A DNA stretch of 62,721 nucleotides, counting the filler, from Atractiella rhizophila (taxonomy: Eukaryota): the NCBI GenBank assembly GCA_021432655.1. It is 3 parts of 3 records of this genome, joined end to end, with 100 filler letters (N's around TTAATTAATTAA, not from the genome) between each part and the next. Parts side by side here need not be neighbours in the genome. Positions count along the whole stretch, not along the records: positions 28,643 to 57,090 come from MU271733.1; 2 more parts are not named here. One strand, written 5' to 3'. The notes beneath the pieces were generated by a model. That model saw only the letters and a list, made by a program, of their open reading frames with translations. It was not told the DNA's origin and did no database searches. The position numbers and the translations under genes were made by a program. Below, piece by piece: positions 21,420-57,190 of this stretch (its first letter is position 1; each line of letters opens with the position of its first letter).

Positions 21420-23967
21420 CCAGAATGTCAGCCCGCACTGTTGCAAACAATTCCACTCTTGGAGGGAAGCCATGTTGAAAGCTTGAACCCACACCCGCTT
21501 TACACATCTTTCTGACTGGACAATACGTGGGCGTATGAGAAGCGAAAACACATCGCCAGTCTGGCTCTTTGGCAGACAAAAAAAGGTTGCGGACCAGAAT
21601 ACTGTTTTGAATTAACCCCTTCTATTCCCCAAATCGAACCCACTCAACGACAACAATCATTATTTCATACGATTCAATCACTCCTCGCCCTACTCCAATC
21701 CATGTCTTTGACCTCGACCACTGTTCGCCATTTGCTCCAACATCCAGTTTGGCGCCTTCGAACCAAACAAACCACTCTTCGACCACGATCAATTTTGCCT
21801 CTCAGAGGACCTTTCGCAAGGAGCACACCGATCAGGAGTTACACGCAGGATACAAAGATGGAGGAATTGAAAGGTTACGACCCAGTTCAGGTGAGTGGCT
21901 GATGTCGTGCGGAAACTTTGCGATCTGGGAATGCTCGTAACATCTGAACATGTTGCTTGCTGGGTTTCAACACAAGAGAAAGAAACTGGATTTTGTAGAG
22001 CTGCTAAAATGAAACGGTGTCTAGATTGTCTGCCGCGTGTGCAATTGCAGTCGATATGTTTCTTCGAGATGAACCCATACCGAGTTTCATAGTAGGCAAA
22101 CCATTCTTGCATCCATTCAGAGAGGCAGAGGTCGAATGTCTGTGCGAAGGGAGATTCGAAGCGGCCTTCATGGATAGCCAAAGTTTGAGTCTTCTAGACT
22201 ATCTGAGTTGCGTTATTTAAGTGAGCTGGACTAAATTCCACACTATGAGCTTAGCTAGCTCACACTTGCTTCCCTCTCACATTGCTTTGTTCTACTTGTG
22301 GGAGAGAAAGATGAAATGGAGGTAGCTAAAAGGATTCCCGAGTCCTGGGTTTTCGACCAGGAACACGCTTTCTACGTGAATGCACCCCATTCGGCTTGAG
22401 CTTACTTTCATTCGTTGGCTTGTAACGCGAGCACCTACGGCCGCTACCGGTGAAAATGTTGACCTGTAGACTGCTCGTTGATTATGAGCTGATCAAGTCC
22501 CGTGCTTTGCGTTAAACATCTGCCCTGATGCTACACTTCACAGGTTTCCCTCATGTCTGAGCGCCTCATCATGGTGACGCCAGACGATGTTCCGACAGGC
22601 TCAGACTCAAAAGTGAACGGGCACCTCATGTCCAACATCCTCCCTCCCAAGTCTTATCTCCATCGAGCCTTCAGCGCCTTCATCTTCCGGCCTACCAGAA
22701 TGTCAGCCAGCACTGTTGCAAACAATTCCACTCTTGGAGGGAACCATGTCGAAAGCTTGAACCCACACCCGCTTTACACATCTTTCTGACTGCACAATAC
22801 GTGCGCGTATGAGAAGCGAAAACACATCGCCAGCCTGGCTCTTGGGCAGACAAAAAAGGTTGCGGACCAGAATACTGTTTTGAATTAACCCCTTCTCTTC
22901 CCCAAATCGAACCCACCCAACGACAACAATCATTATTTCATAAGATTCAATCACTCCTCGCCCTACTCCAATCCATGTCTTTGACCTCGACCAGTGTTCG
23001 CCATTTGCTCCAACAACCAGTTTGGCGCCTTCGAACCAAACAAACCACCCTTCGACCACGATCAATTTTGCCTCTCAGAGGACCTTTCGCAAGGAGCACA
23101 CTGATCAGGAGTTACACGCAGGATACAAAGATGGAGGAATTGAAAGGTTATGACCCAGTTCAGGTGAGTGGCTGATGTCGTGTTGAAACTTCGCGATCTG
23201 GGAATGCTCGTAACATCTGACCATGTTGCTTGCTGGGTTTCAACACAAAAGAAAGAAACTGGGTTTTGTAGAGCTGCTAAAATGAAACGGTGTCTGGATT
23301 GTCTGCCGCGTGTGCAATTGCAGTCGATATGTTTCTTCGAGATGAACCCATACCGAGTTTCAGAGTAGGCAAACCATTCTTTCATCCATTCAGAGAGGCA
23401 GAGGTCGAATGTCTGTGCGAAGGGAGATTCGACGAGGCCTTCATGGATAGCCAAAGTTTGAGTCTTCTAGACTATCTGAGTTGCGTTATTTAAGTGAGCT
23501 GGACTAAATTCCACACTATGAGCTTAGCTAGCTCACACTTGCTTCCCTCTCACATTGCTTTGTTCTACTTGTGGGAGAGAAAGATGAAATGGAGGTAGCT
23601 AAAAGGATTCCCGAGTCCTGGGTTTTCGACCAGGAACACGCTTTCTACGTGAATGCACCCCATTCGGCTTGAGCTTACTTTCATTCGTTGGCTTGTAACG
23701 CGAGCACCTACGGCCGCTACCGGTGAAAATGTTGACCTGTAGACTGCTCGTTGATTATGAGCTGATCAAGTCCCCGTGCTTTGCGTTAAACATCTGCCCT
23801 GATGCTACACTTCACGGGTTTCCCTCATGTCTGAGCGTCTCATCATGGTGACGCCAGATGATGTTCCGACAGGCTCAGACTCAAAAGTGAACGGGCACCT
23901 CATGTCCAACATCCTCCCTCCCAAGTCTTATCTCCATCGAGCCTTCAGCGCCTTCATCTTCCGGCCT
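21420..23967 (+). repeat. Tandem duplication, ~1.27-kb unit (21420-22693 / 22695-23967) of the IDI1 5' region
   Basis: Near-identical promoter, exon 1, intron 1 and start of exon 2. Confidence 0.97.
21702..22693 (+). pseudogene. IDI1: 3'-truncated IDI1 duplicate
   Basis: Exon 1 and exon 2 up to HRAFSAFIFRP, then the junction into the second unit. Confidence 0.85.
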
Positions 23968-24612
23968 TCCGATGGTCGTTTGCTCCTTCAGAAGAGGGCA
24001 GACGAGAAGATCACGTTCCCTTCGATGTGGACAAACACCTGCTGTTCGCATCCTCTCTGGCTTGATGCAGAGCGCGAAGAAAAAGGCCAGATGGGCGTGC
24101 GTAGAGCTGTACAGAGGAAGTTGCTTCATGAGCTAGGCATACCGTTGGAGACGATCAAATTGGACGAAATGGTTTATGTTACGAGGATTCACTATCTCGC
24201 TCCGAGTGATGGGAAGTGGGGAGAGCACGAGAGTAGGTCTTGCCCTCTGTCAGGTGGGTGAGTGGAGGATGCTAACAAAGGCATGAAATAGTCGACTATG
24301 TTATGTTCATCGTTGCCGATGTTCCCCTTGAACCAAGCCCGAACGAGGTCTCTGATACGAAGTATGTATCGAAAGACGAATTAGAGGCGTTTTTCAAAGA
24401 TCCGCGTAAGTTCTCTGCTGTAAAGGTGTCTGCGTCTATTGAAACTGAGAATAGAAAACTCTTTTACTCCCTGGTTCAAGCTGATTGCTCAATCTTTCCT
24501 TTACAAATGGTGGGACCATCTACTCGAAGGTGGCAAGGCGGATTTGGAACGCGTCAAAGGATTAATCGAAAGTGGGGGCGAGCGTGATACTATTCAGAGA
24601 ATGGTGGAATGA
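22975..24612 (+). CDS. IDI1: Isopentenyl-diphosphate delta-isomerase (type 1)
   Basis: LHRAFS, LLLQKRADEKITFPSMWTNTCCSHP, WGEHEIDY, FTPWFKLI; introns 23164-23817, 24233-24291, 24406-24454; intron-1 acceptor reads CGG. Confidence 0.95.
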
Positions 24613-28542: not shown

Positions 28543-28642
28543 NNNNNNNNNNNNNNNNNNNNNNNNNNNNNNNNNNNNNNNNNNNNTTAATTAATTAANN
28601 NNNNNNNNNNNNNNNNNNNNNNNNNNNNNNNNNNNNNNNNNN
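28543..28642. other. Gap with artificial TTAATTAATTAA linker
   Basis: N runs flanking an all-frame stop spacer. Confidence 0.95.
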
Positions 28643-28644
28643 TT

Positions 28645-28848
28645 CGATACAAAGGGTATTCACCATCTGAAGACGAGTGGATCAACATCACAGATCTAGA
28701 AAACTCACAAGATGCCATAAAAGACTATCACACTGCACATCCCCTCGCAGTTCGTCCCGATTCCATACCGAACTCCGCCAAAAATCGCCCAAATGCACGT
28801 TTCCGTAACCTTCGACGAAAACGCGCTGAAGGGTCTTCTTCACTTTAA
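28645..28848 (+). CDS. Pol C-terminal chromodomain (partial)
   Basis: RYKGYSPSEDEWINITDLENSQDAIKDYH...*. Confidence 0.85.
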   Translation, partial: RYKGYSPSEDEWINITDLENSQDAIKDYHTAHPLAVRPDSIPNSAKNRPNARFRNLRRKRAEGSSSL

Positions 28849-29212
28849 GGGGTCCAACACCCCTATATGCCTTGCCGGGTGAAATCCTAGTCTTTGATAC
28901 TTAGGTCAAGGCAAGGCGCCGACTTGTTCCTCAACGGACAAGTCGGCGACTTGGTCGTTGGTGAGTCCATTCGACGCCCGTCAAAGACGAATGCTCATTG
29001 CGTTCTCGCACCATCACCAATGTCGCATTTACGAAAATCGCCCTCAATCGCGAGGTCCCCTCCCCCTCACTTTAAGAGGTCCTACTCCTCTACATGCCTC
29101 GCTGGGTGAATCCCTAGTCACATTGTTGAACATAGGTCTAGGCGAGGCGCCGGTCTGTTCCTCAACGGACAGATCGGCGACCGGTTTGTTGGTGAGTCAC
29201 TCACGCCAGTTC
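28841..29212 (+). ncRNA. Two tandem copies of a candidate structured RNA element (28841-28982; 29068-29212)
   Basis: Multi-hairpin fold with compensatory substitutions between copies. Confidence 0.6.
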
Positions 29213-29691
29213 CGCAAAAACGGTTGCTTATTGCACGAAAACAACACCGGTCAAATCCCAAAAAATCCCTCAATTGCGAGGTACACAACGCCCCCTTTCA
29301 TCTCACGCCCTGTTCTGGTTTTGATGTTTATGGTGTTCTATTTTTTGCTTTTATCCTTTTTGTTTCCCATTTTTGTTCGCTCGACAACACACTATCCCAC
29401 AAAAAAGACAGACCGGCGGCGAACATGCAAACCGCCGACACGTTATACTGCGCGTTGTGTCCACGAACGCGTGGCCCAGGCCTATTTGGTTGCGAGCTCC
29501 ATAATAAGCTTGGGTAGCTAGTGGGAGGAACGCCTGAGGGTCCTCCCCTAGACAGGGGAGTGTGAGTCCCGCATCACTCACTTTGCCATTGATCTCCCCA
29601 CTCACCACAATGCCTTATGCCATCACAACACGATTTACGCTTGTCGCCGCCTGGCAATTCGCCGCTAATACGGAGTCACAAAACATACATT

Positions 29692-31397
29692 TCAAAGCTC
29701 AAAATCGCCGCTCCGAATAGATTCCTCACTATCACTACTACTCGAAACAGAATCAGAATACACATCGAAATTGGAATTATCATAAGCCTCCTGAGCCAAC
29801 GAAGGTTTCAAGTCGCCGAGTCGGAACTCGATTTCGCCGATGCGACGACTTTTGTACAGCTGGCGACGAGTTAGGTGCCCTACGATGCCTAAACAAACAT
29901 CTGGAGAATCAGACGGATCGCCGAAAAAACAGATGAACTCACCCTACCAGTCACATCGGCTATCACACCTTCCAGCACAGAACCCTCACTAGCCCCATCC
30001 TCCGCAACACGTTCATCCTGCCTCCTTTTAAACAATTCCATTTGCAACTCGGCGGCCTTAAGAGCATCCGCCGCCGCTTGCGCATTTAACCTGGCGGCCT
30101 CGAGCATCGTGCGTGCGAAATCCATGCTGAATGCTTCGGAGTACAACCGGGCGTCGCTCAGCATAGAATGCGAGGGAGAGTCCTCGTCGGCGTCCGACAC
30201 ATTCTCATAATTGCTCTCGGCGAAAGCTGACGGACGTTTTCTCCCGTCGCCGATGCGTTTAGGATGGAAGGTAGTCGACATCACGACCAGCATAGAGAGT
30301 TCCCGCAAATAACCCAAAGGCAAGACCTCACACCTCTTTCGCGAACTGTGACAACGCGAACAAACCCGACCGAACGCGGTTGCAACATGCCCAGCGGAGA
30401 AGTCACACACTTGAGATTCGTTGTCGGCCTTAGCCTTCTTTTTCGCCGCTTTGACAGGTGCCGCTCGAATTTTTCCGGTACAATTACTACATCGCTGCGT
30501 TCCGATGCTTGCTAACGTGGGGAGGATGCGCGGGTTCGCCCGAGGAGTCATGATAACCAATTCGAGTTCCAATTCACCCAGATTGATGTTCGCCGCAGCA
30601 TGAGAATAAGCCTCACGGGTACCTGGCCAGAAGTAACGATATTTCGCCGCATCTAATTCCTTGTCGCCGATTCGCACTTTTCCGTCGCGCACTACGAATT
30701 CGGCGACCGGCGCACCGGCGAACGGATTTCGATCCCCCAACGCTGCAGGCAGAACAAAGGTTGTCGCAGTAACCAGATGGTCAGATAGAGTCCTCACAAC
30801 CCCAACCTCGGGTCCTTTCACCGCCGAAATCGACTTTTGAGCACGCAAATTTTCTTCCGCCGCTCGTCGTTTATTTTCAAGCGCCACCCGTTTGCGTTCC
30901 TCTTCTTCCTTCGCCAAGCGTTTTTTTCGTGTCGGACAAGAAAAGCTCTCGTTCTTTCCTCCGCAAAACAGGGTCGCCATTCGCCGACTCGGAGGGCTGA
31001 AACCCGAGTCTCACCGCTTCCTCCTCGACGAGCGCCGCTTGTTCGGCCCAAAGACGAAGTTCATCACACAACGCCTGCAGACCTTCCACAGGCATATGCA
31101 GAGGAAATGACAAAACCCGTCCATCACCGAAACCTTTGGCAGCCTCATAAGCCATTCGCACCTTCCCATCGCCGACGAGTTACCACACAAAATATACGAG
31201 ACAAGAAAACTCACCTCTGCCTGCACCTCATCACAAAATTTGACATACAGAGGGTAGCACCTTTTCCCCCACTCCAGCACATCGGCGAAACGCCCAAAGT
31301 TCACCTCCTTCGCTTTCTCCACGTCCCAGAAAATGGTGCTCTCCTTCCTATCCTTGTTCGCCAGAACGAAGTCGAAGAGTTGCGCATCGGTCGACAT
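29692..31397 (-). CDS. Antisense spliced gene inside the retrotransposon; coiled coil plus Zn2Cys6-like motif
   Basis: MSTDAQLFDF..., GT donors at ~31214 and ~29945, CSNC-x24-C-x14-CSRC-x6-C; one frameshift in an A7 run (30921-30927). Confidence 0.65.
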
Positions 31398-31520
31398 TTT
31401 TGCAAGAGTAGACGGAGGGTGATGGTGGTAGAACTGGAAAATTTTTCGCCCAAGCTAGCCGCAAACCTTAACTTTAAAATTCCGTGACTCACGTACACGA
31501 GTCAGAAATTTGGGGGGTGT

Positions 31521-32010
31521 TGTCAGGCTTGCCCCTACGCATTACCGAAACGCACCATCTGAAGTCACGTGACCCACTTTACCATGCCATAGGACCACGC
31601 GCCTGCCCATCGCCGCTTTGCTCACGTTCTTGCTGATCGCCGCCTTCCCCTGTCTCACACGAATCGCCGCTCAGCGAACCTTATACATTTCGCCGGTCTG
31701 CACCGTCTCCATTAATGCTTTATTGTCCTTTCTCACTTGTACTGCTCAGTATGTCTTATTTCCGAGTTTTCCTTTTATTGCTTTCCTGATCTAGCTATCT
31801 TACATGTTTCAAGAAACTTATGATACAGTTTATGGCAGTGCTTTTACATATGTATATATACATCGAGATGTAGTGGTGGTGACCTCAGAGTATTCTCTTA
31901 GGTTTACCTCCACTACAGGTTAGTCTTCTCATGCCATACTATTCCCTTAGGTTTACCTCCACTACAGACGCATCGCCCATCGGCGACCGCACATAGTGTC
32001 AGCCCTAACA
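31521..32010 (+). repeat. 3' LTR
   Basis: TGTCAGG...CCCTAACA after the PPT; 3' part shared with 32742-33218. Confidence 0.85.
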
Positions 32011-32741: not shown

Positions 32742-33218
32742 TGTCGGGCTGAAAAGGTATCAGGTTTGCATCTTACGCAAATCGGTGCCTGTTTGCCGGA
32801 CTGCGTCTTCTATCGCCCATTTGTGTTCCCCACGAATCGGCGCCCGTTTGCCCGTTTGTATTCAACACAAATCTGCGTCCTGTCGCCTATTTGCATGCCG
32901 GTCGCCCGTTCGCCTATTTGCAGCTGCATCACCACTTAGCCCAACTGTGTCTATTCTCCTCTTATTAACTCCACGTAATCCCACTGTCACTTCCCCCTTT
33001 TTAGTTCTCTTACGTATTTCATCTGCTCTCCTCTACACTCTGTGGCAGTGTTATTCCACTTGTATATATAGATCGGAGGGTAGTGGAGGTGACCTTAGGG
33101 TATTCTCTTAGGTTTATCTCCACTACAGGTTAGTCTTCATGTCATATCATGTACTTTGGTTTATCTCCACTATAGATGCATCGCCTGTCGGCGACCGCAC
33201 ATAGTGTCAGCCCTAACA
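32742..33218 (+). mobile_element. Solo LTR related to 31521-32010
   Basis: TGTCGGGCTG...CAGCCCTAACA; last ~180 bp closely similar to the other LTR; no TSD. Confidence 0.75.
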
Positions 33219-57090: not shown

Positions 57091-57190
57091 NNNNNNNNNN
57101 NNNNNNNNNNNNNNNNNNNNNNNNNNNNNNNNNNTTAATTAATTAANNNNNNNNNNNNNNNNNNNNNNNNNNNNNNNNNNNNNNNNNNNN
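57091..57190. other. Gap with artificial TTAATTAATTAA linker
   Basis: N runs plus spacer. Confidence 0.95.

What the first reader, a model, noticed from the sequence alone, without database searches (positions are those of the whole stretch)
29692..31397. Chromovirus carries an antisense, intron-containing gene with a Zn2Cys6-like motif
A minus-strand gene lies between pol and the PPT, starting ~120 bp from the 3' LTR. It has GT-AG introns, a charged coiled coil and CxxC-x24-C-x14-CxxC-x6-C, resembling a fungal binuclear cluster with an expanded first loop. Antisense orientation would let the introns survive reverse transcription. It may be an element-encoded regulator or anti-silencing factor (inference). 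The single frameshift is in a homopolymer and may be a sequencing error.
Basis: partly seen in the sequence, partly recalled or inferred. Interest (0 to 1): 0.7.

Follow-up and report, generated by a model that had tools for sequence, protein, structure and literature searches.

The report
Backwards regulator-like gene in fungal retrotransposon
A jumping gene of a root fungus carries a conserved, intron-containing extra gene on its reverse strand and is studded with one symmetrical DNA word kept by selection, which suggests, without proving, that the element makes its own regulator; backwards extra genes are known, this pairing is not.

Summary
The gene is real. It is a three-exon antisense gene (31397-29692) in the 3' part of a chromodomain Ty3/Gypsy family of Atractiella rhizophila. 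Across 21 aligned copies dN/dS is 0.05-0.13, and 17 of 20 copies keep all six cysteines. The window's 1-nt frameshift is probably an assembly error. The protein is an orphan: no Pfam Zn2Cys6 match, no relative outside this species, no confident fold.

Two further facts matter. A 6.5-kb sister form lacks the gene yet has open gag and pol, and it appears to recombine with the long form in integrase. Both forms carry a near-palindromic site (C-NNN-KCGSCGM-NNN-G) at about 6-7 per kb. It is written into codons in all frames, conserved at synonymous positions, and not enriched in 36 other integrase-centred loci.

Best reading (0.4): the protein is a zinc-binding regulator that reads this site in trans, like plant VANC. 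The link is untested, and the gene-less form keeps the sites. Antisense extra genes are known (Botrytis brtn, plant Grande/Retand). The scan already noted this gene and motif on other copies in this genome.

The parts
28645..28848 (+). 3' end of pol (chromodomain); the rest of this copy lies in the assembly gap
   Evidence: Pfam Chromo E=2e-4; full pol domain set in sister copies
28840..29001 (+). 3' UTR repeat 1, with a hairpin whose stem is made of two copies of the motif; shared by long and short forms
   Evidence: 77% repeat; fold -30.9 kcal/mol and a compensatory pair between copies
29067..29234 (+). 3' UTR repeat 2, same hairpin and loop
29692..29888 (-). exon 3, acidic Ser-rich tail with stop (may start at 29859)
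   Evidence: dN/dS 0.13, 2 stops in 1036 codons
29889..29947 (-). intron 2 (alternative ends 29942-29860)
   Evidence: 55-60 nt in 17 copies, GT/AG conserved; inferred, no RNA
29948..31161 (-). exon 2 (about 404 codons)
   Evidence: dN/dS 0.12; open in several copies
30000..30176 (-). C-terminal Ala-rich helix, possible dimerisation segment
   Evidence: AF2 helix 335-393, pLDDT about 40-55; role inferred
30330..30491 (-). six-cysteine cluster C-x2-C-x24-C-x14-C-x2-C-x6-C, with a Lys-rich first loop
   Evidence: all six Cys in 17 of 20 covering copies
30822..30972 (-). E/K/R-rich long helix
   Evidence: AF2 helix 70-119, pLDDT 73-85 over residues 71-110
30921..30927 (-). A-run with a 1-nt indel that breaks exon 2 in this assembly
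31162..31214 (-). intron 1, 53 nt
   Evidence: 51-64 nt among 16 copies, GT..AAG
31215..31397 (-). exon 1, 61 codons from ATG
   Evidence: dN/dS 0.05
31512..31520 (+). G-rich polypurine tract
   Evidence: sequence directly before the LTR
31521..32010 (+). 3' LTR (TG..CA, 490 bp), long-form U3
   Evidence: matches both LTRs of full-length copies
31606..31674 (+). three motif sites 27 bp apart in U3
   Evidence: cores at 31610, 31637, 31664
28916..31986 (.). 25 dispersed KCGSCGM cores (candidate binding sites) over the visible element
   Evidence: 15 cores in 57.9 kb of the rest of the window

Best explanation
The long form of this chromovirus family encodes, antisense to gag-pol, a spliced nuclear accessory protein of about 520-530 aa. 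Shown: the gene is conserved by selection and travels with its introns. Inferred: the introns survive because the genomic RNA is the opposite strand. Inferred: the Cys6 cluster binds zinc and, as a dimer, reads the near-palindromic dsDNA site C-NNN-K-CG-S-CG-M-NNN-G. That site is built into U3, gag, pol and the gene itself, so the protein would coat the whole element and keep it transcribed against CpG-methylation silencing (activator or anti-silencer). The protein works in trans, so the gene-less short form, which keeps the sites and swaps integrase sequence with the long form, rides on it.
For: Selection on the protein: dN/dS 0.05/0.12/0.13 against 0.97-2.7 in four other frames, close to pol at 0.06-0.09. 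Motif: TCGCCG 51 times in a full copy against 2.8 expected; 34 against 6.2 after synonymous shuffling, in all frames and both strands. Fourfold sites inside the motif differ at 0.06-0.11 against 0.18-0.27 outside; site-level Fisher p=0.009 in pol and 0.013 in the antisense exon. Synonymous CpG transitions in the motif (0.068) are at the level of amino-acid-changing ones (0.057-0.068) and below other synonymous CpGs (0.12). The symmetry is statistical, not within sites, and site-to-site RNA pairing is not above control (19 of 58 against 13-32 in 8 shuffles), which fits a dimeric protein on dsDNA. Motif and Cys6 ORF occur in this family only, among 36 other integrase-centred loci. Density is highest in the long-only segment (9.0 against 5.1-7.1 per kb). 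On the integrase tree long and short forms are intermixed (9 changes against 9.9 shuffled; 4 forced by strong branches). CpG hypermutation shows methylation pressure (C>T 0.16-0.20 against 0.06-0.13).
Against: The gene-less form keeps 19 of 20 pol sites at dS 0.34 and has sites in its own U3, which fits a host or Gag/Pol reader equally well. Gene and motif co-occur in one family only (n=1). There is no Pfam Zn_clus match, although 40 host matches were found in this genome, and no relative outside the species. Motif CpGs are not visibly protected from mutation (0.057 against 0.068 at amino-acid-changing sites). Each site holds one CGG, not the paired CGG of Gal4-type sites (recalled). Two 3' UTR hairpins built from the motif show a compensatory change, so some sites act at single-strand level. 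VANC sites lie in non-coding tandem repeats (PMC5735166, passages), unlike these. The integrase tree is largely star-like (11 of 30 inner branches strong).
Confidence: 0.4

Rival explanations
1. Gene and motif are unrelated. The protein is an accessory factor for another step (RNA export, particle or pre-integration complex handling, chromatin tethering). The motif is read by a host factor or by Gag/integrase, common to both forms.
For: The short form keeps the sites under selection without the gene. Motif-built hairpins in the shared 3' UTR covary. No homology shows DNA binding. Plant antisense ORFs are proposed to be retrovirus-like accessory factors (PMC7264820, parts 1-2 of 3 read).
Against: Other elements in the same host show no such load, which a host reader would be expected to favour elsewhere too. 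Site density peaks in the long-only segment. Dispersed sites do not pair above control.
Confidence: 0.35
2. The protein binds the site but represses or caps copy number (self-restraint), or the antisense transcript itself feeds RNA silencing.
For: Sites lie inside coding regions, where bound protein could impede transcription. A gene-less form exists that could be an escape variant. Antisense RNA regulation is discussed in PMC7264820.
Against: The gene-bearing copies are the youngest: LTR pairs 96.7-100% (5 long copies) against 86-96% (4 short copies). An escape form should lose sites, yet it keeps them. An RNA-only role does not explain dN/dS near 0.1.
Confidence: 0.15
3. A captured host gene carried as a passenger, or one that benefits the host rather than the element.
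For: It has ordinary fungal introns, and the inverted capture of a host gene would give this layout.
Against: Protein matches in the genome fall almost all on contigs that also matched the element's DNA (a few weak ones were not inspected). No host paralogue or outside relative was found. Selection acts along the element's lineages, and the gene's dS (0.77) exceeds pol's (0.24) for the same pair of elements, so it is a long-term resident.
Confidence: 0.05

Closest known systems
brtn of Boty/BcGypsy1 elements, Botrytis cinerea and Sclerotinia (Zhao 2011; seen only as cited in PMC7264820 and PMC8365987 passages)
   Same: Extra antisense gene between pol and the 3' LTR of a fungal Ty3/Gypsy element; function unknown.
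   Different: Ascomycete against Pucciniomycotina host. No Botrytis protein appeared in my searches. No target motif or gene-less partner is described in the passages I read; the original paper was not read.
Plant antisense aORFs: Grande gene23, RIRE2, Retand TRP28 (PMC7264820 parts 1-2 of 3; PMC11963269 passages)
   Same: Position, orientation, conservation similar to gag/pol, proposed nuclear regulatory or DNA-binding role.
   Different: Retand is a non-chromovirus plant lineage. No TRP28 or SMC match here. This gene has two introns and a Cys6 cluster, and the repeated word is dispersed through codons, not in tandem arrays.
VANC/VANDAL anti-silencing system of Arabidopsis (PMC5735166, passages)
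   Same: Transposon-encoded extra protein plus a family-specific short motif accumulated in the element; can act in trans on elements that carry the motif.
   Different: VANDALs are DNA transposons (recalled) with motifs in non-coding tandem repeats and demonstrated binding and demethylation. Here it is an LTR element, the motif is near-palindromic and inside coding sequence, no homology was seen, and binding is untested.
Fungal Zn2Cys6 (Gal4-type) factors, Pfam PF00172
   Same: Six Cys in the order CxxC..C..CxxC-x6-C, basic residues, nearby helices; the candidate site holds CGG.
   Different: First loop 24 residues instead of 6 (recalled), second loop 14; no profile match; the cluster is mid-protein.

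Membership tests
Chromovirus (Ty3/Gypsy) | gag, then PR-RT-RH-IN with a C-terminal chromodomain, between LTRs | tested here: met
   Pfam on two sister copies; LTR pairs; window chromodomain
Antisense aORF between pol and 3' LTR (brtn/Grande class) | antisense ORF in that position, present in many copies and conserved | tested here: met
Antisense aORF between pol and 3' LTR (brtn/Grande class) | antisense transcription from its own promoter | not testable with these tools
   no RNA run was available to lay
brtn protein family | sequence homology to brtn | tested here: inconclusive
   no Botrytis hit; brtn itself was not available for direct comparison
Zn2Cys6 (PF00172) | canonical spacing with a 6-residue first loop and a profile match | tested here: not met
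   loop is 24 residues; no match at E<=10; not among 40 genome matches
Zn2Cys6 (PF00172) | binuclear zinc cluster fold | tested here: inconclusive
   models at pLDDT 41 and 50; best Z 2.4
DUF3716 (PF12511) | profile match | tested here: not met
   only weak Atlas leads, 0.75 and 0.83; no match in the genome at E<=0.1
VANC-type anti-silencing system | family-specific short motif accumulated in the element | tested here: met
VANC-type anti-silencing system | motifs concentrated in non-coding tandem repeats | tested here: not met
   sites lie throughout gag, pol and the gene; only U3 shows a 27-bp repeat of three
VANC-type anti-silencing system | protein binds the motif and removes methylation | not testable with these tools
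   needs binding and methylome data; the indirect mutation test showed no clear protection

The most novel reading that the evidence does not exclude
A fungal LTR retrotransposon has evolved a self-recognition system. An antisense, spliced, expanded zinc-cluster protein binds a 15-bp palindrome that selection has written into the codons of the whole element, and so shields the family from CpG silencing. A gene-less sister form free-rides on the protein and recombines with the producer. This would be a VANC-like system evolved independently in another kingdom and another class of element.
Probability: 0.25. Interest if true: 0.8.

Novelty: new variant of a known kind. Interest (0 to 1): 0.55.

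Why it matters
The function of antisense extra genes in LTR retrotransposons is an open question (PMC7264820, PMC11963269). This family offers a candidate protein, a candidate site kept by selection even inside codons, and a natural gene-less control, so one binding assay can test the regulator idea. If the link fails, the selected element-wide palindrome still needs a reader, and the gene is one more orphan of a known class.

Tried and rejected
Homologue searches found only A. rhizophila copies: 6 of 7999 candidates and 1 of 45 shorter ones. The 1.84-billion profile search gave 3 family members plus one unconvincing E=9e-4 match outside the Cys region. ESM Atlas hits were all under 0.9, leads only. 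AF2 models were low-confidence and the fold search gave nothing above Z 2.4. The homodimer-with-zinc job gave no verdict. No RNA holder was listed. Small-share runs X6 and X9 were laid but not used. One of the multi-copy host Zn_clus matches proved an ordinary duplicated transcription-factor gene, and a second showed no element features (3 loci read of 8 first wanted). General RNA pairing as the cause of the motif was not supported. TpCpG-specific hypermutation was not seen; all CpG contexts are similar. An earlier purine tract at about 29550 was considered as the PPT and rejected, because LTR pairs place the LTR at 31521. Nine paper searches (listings only) showed no description of this family or motif; the library lacks most subscription journals. 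No supplements were read.

Full report
Setting. Window places 28643-57090 are the start of one contig of a 51-Mb fungal assembly. Source labels on protein hits name Atractiella rhizophila. The element's 5' part is lost in the gap at 28543-28642. What remains is the chromodomain end of pol, a 3' region of 2.7 kb and a 490-bp LTR at 31521-32010. A DNA search of the genome gave 80 matches from 40 scored of 418 candidates, the long ones at 82-98% identity. Full-length copies of about 8.7-8.9 kb have gag, PR-RT-RH-IN-chromo and LTR pairs 96.7-100% identical.

The gene is real. I aligned the window and 20 copies whose match was at least 900 bp (shorter matches dropped). Nei-Gojobori dN/dS is 0.052, 0.119 and 0.129 for the three exons (112, 204 and 116 pairs; pairs with under 40 codons, or pS under 0.05 or over 0.7, dropped; pairs are not independent). 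Four other frames give 0.97-2.7. The antiparallel shadow frame gives 0.15-0.21 with many more stops. Pol gives 0.06-0.09. Indel lengths mark the introns: intron 1 is 51-64 nt in 16 copies, and the intron-2 region 55-60 nt in 17. Intron 2 has two frame-compatible readings. A donor at 29942 varies as GTRAGT, which looks canonical; the 29 nt after 29889 showed no indels in the copies displayed, which looks coding. RNA is needed. Four of 11 copies spanning all exons are open; the rest are broken as dead copies are. All six cysteines are kept in 17 of 20 covering copies. The window's break is one base in an A-run. Contigs of one run show only shorter runs there; those of the second run of the same sample are less clear. 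An assembly error is likely, not proven.

The protein is an orphan. Searches return only copies from this species. Pfam gives nothing significant, and Zn_clus finds 40 host matches but not this gene. AlphaFold supports only the charged N-terminal helix. The Cys region could not be folded or matched. So 'Zn2Cys6-like' is a pattern resemblance, and membership fails on loop length and profile.

A gene-less sister form. Many elements share gag, pol and about 650 bp of 3' sequence, then go straight to an LTR with a different U3; they are about 6.5 kb. One has open gag and pol and near-identical LTRs. I labelled 15 long and 17 short loci by hand. On an RT tree (29 rows) the forms mostly separate: 3 label changes against 8.2 shuffled. 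On an integrase-chromodomain tree (33 rows) they are intermixed: 9 against 9.9, with 4 changes forced by strong branches. That tree is weakly resolved, but the contrast fits recurrent recombination and hence activity in the same cells. For one pair of long elements the gene's dS (0.77) is three times pol's (0.24), so the gene is an old resident. Whether the short form is ancestral or derived is not resolved, as there is no outgroup.

An element-wide site. TCGCCG occurs 51 times in a full copy against 2.8 expected from the rest of the window. The window has 8, 9 and 7 per kb over the element and 17 in the other 57.9 kb. In the three ORFs of one copy it occurs 34 times against 6.2 after synonymous shuffling, in all frames; another Gypsy family and six host ORFs show no excess. 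Among 36 other integrase-centred loci none shows it (0-1.5 per kb against 4.7-5.5) and none has a credible Cys6 ORF (one repeat-derived false match; split or broken genes would be missed, and some loci are the same family or lack an element ORF). Flanks extend it to C-NNN-K-CG-S-CG-M-NNN-G: 35 and 34 of 58 cores have the outer C and G. The 15-base length was prompted by an earlier scan note and checked here. Fourfold positions in the site are conserved about two- to three-fold better than others, in both forms, and synonymous CpG transitions in it fall to the amino-acid-changing level. Symmetry does not covary within sites, and pairing between sites is within the control range. This points to a protein reading double-stranded DNA. 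An exception is two 3' UTR hairpins built from site pairs, with a compensatory change.

Mechanism. Shown: a selected antisense gene, retained introns, a selected palindromic site, CpG hypermutation, a gene-less form. Inferred: zinc binding, dimer binding to the site, activation or anti-silencing, supply in trans. For: gene and site are both confined to this family among those sampled, density peaks in the long-only segment (9.0 per kb), U3 holds three sites 27 bp apart, and gene-bearing copies are the youngest. Against: the short form keeps 19 of 20 pol sites, the co-occurrence is a single case, site CpGs are not clearly protected from mutation, and nothing shows that the protein binds DNA. 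I give the linked reading 0.4, an unlinked accessory role 0.35 and a repressive role 0.15.

Comparison and novelty. Antisense extra genes at this position are known in plants and in Botrytis Boty, with unknown function (PMC7264820, parts 1-2 of 3 read; PMC8365987 and PMC11963269, passages). VANC proteins bind family-specific motifs in non-coding tandem repeats and remove methylation (PMC5735166, passages). Passages of PMC3248453 held no 'antisense' or 'Zn2Cys6'; PMC2864245 mentions an additional ORF of unknown function in a figure legend and has no 'antisense'. Nine paper searches (listings only) showed no account of this family. The layout is therefore a known kind; the orphan Cys6 protein, the codon-embedded selected palindrome and the recombining gene-less form make it a new variant. 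The scan had already noted the gene on several other copies in this genome and the motif twice, and similar antisense Cys-rich genes in two other genomes; these are unchecked notes, not support. My own motif count and VANC idea came before that look-up.

Noticed in passing
window 32758-33218: Solo LTR of the short, gene-less form with a 5-bp target duplication (AAAGG), 750 bp downstream of the long element's 3' LTR.
   Followed up: partly
window 31887-31896; L021 and L022 just after the 5' LTR: The sequence after the 5' LTR is complementary over 10 nt to the LTR just downstream of a TATA-like run, as in self-priming Tf1-type elements (mechanism recalled, mentioned in PMC2864245).
   Followed up: partly
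window 28895-28965 and 29130-29200: Two hairpins with the same loop, a compensatory base-pair change among copies, and stems formed from the motif; present in long and short forms. Possible packaging or dimerisation signals.
   Followed up: partly
window 32011-57100: Tandem array of about five F-box genes; the element sits directly against a fragment of one copy.
   Followed up: partly
window 21420-23970: 1.27-kb tandem duplication at 97.5% identity that runs into a gene resembling isopentenyl-diphosphate isomerase (read by eye, name recalled); may be an assembly artefact.
   Followed up: no
decayed copies L023, L028, L082, L083, L087, L088, L089: C>T changes are raised at CpG in all four contexts (0.16-0.20), not only TpCpG.
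   Followed up: partly
L080, L086, L072: Elements with mixed long-type and short-type LTRs or nested insertions of family members.
   Followed up: no
L096 (G000:C44): Integrase-bearing open frame of 2672 codons in another repeated element.
   Followed up: no
window 28543-28642, 57091-57190: Scaffold gaps with a TTAATTAATTAA linker; not biological.
   Followed up: yes
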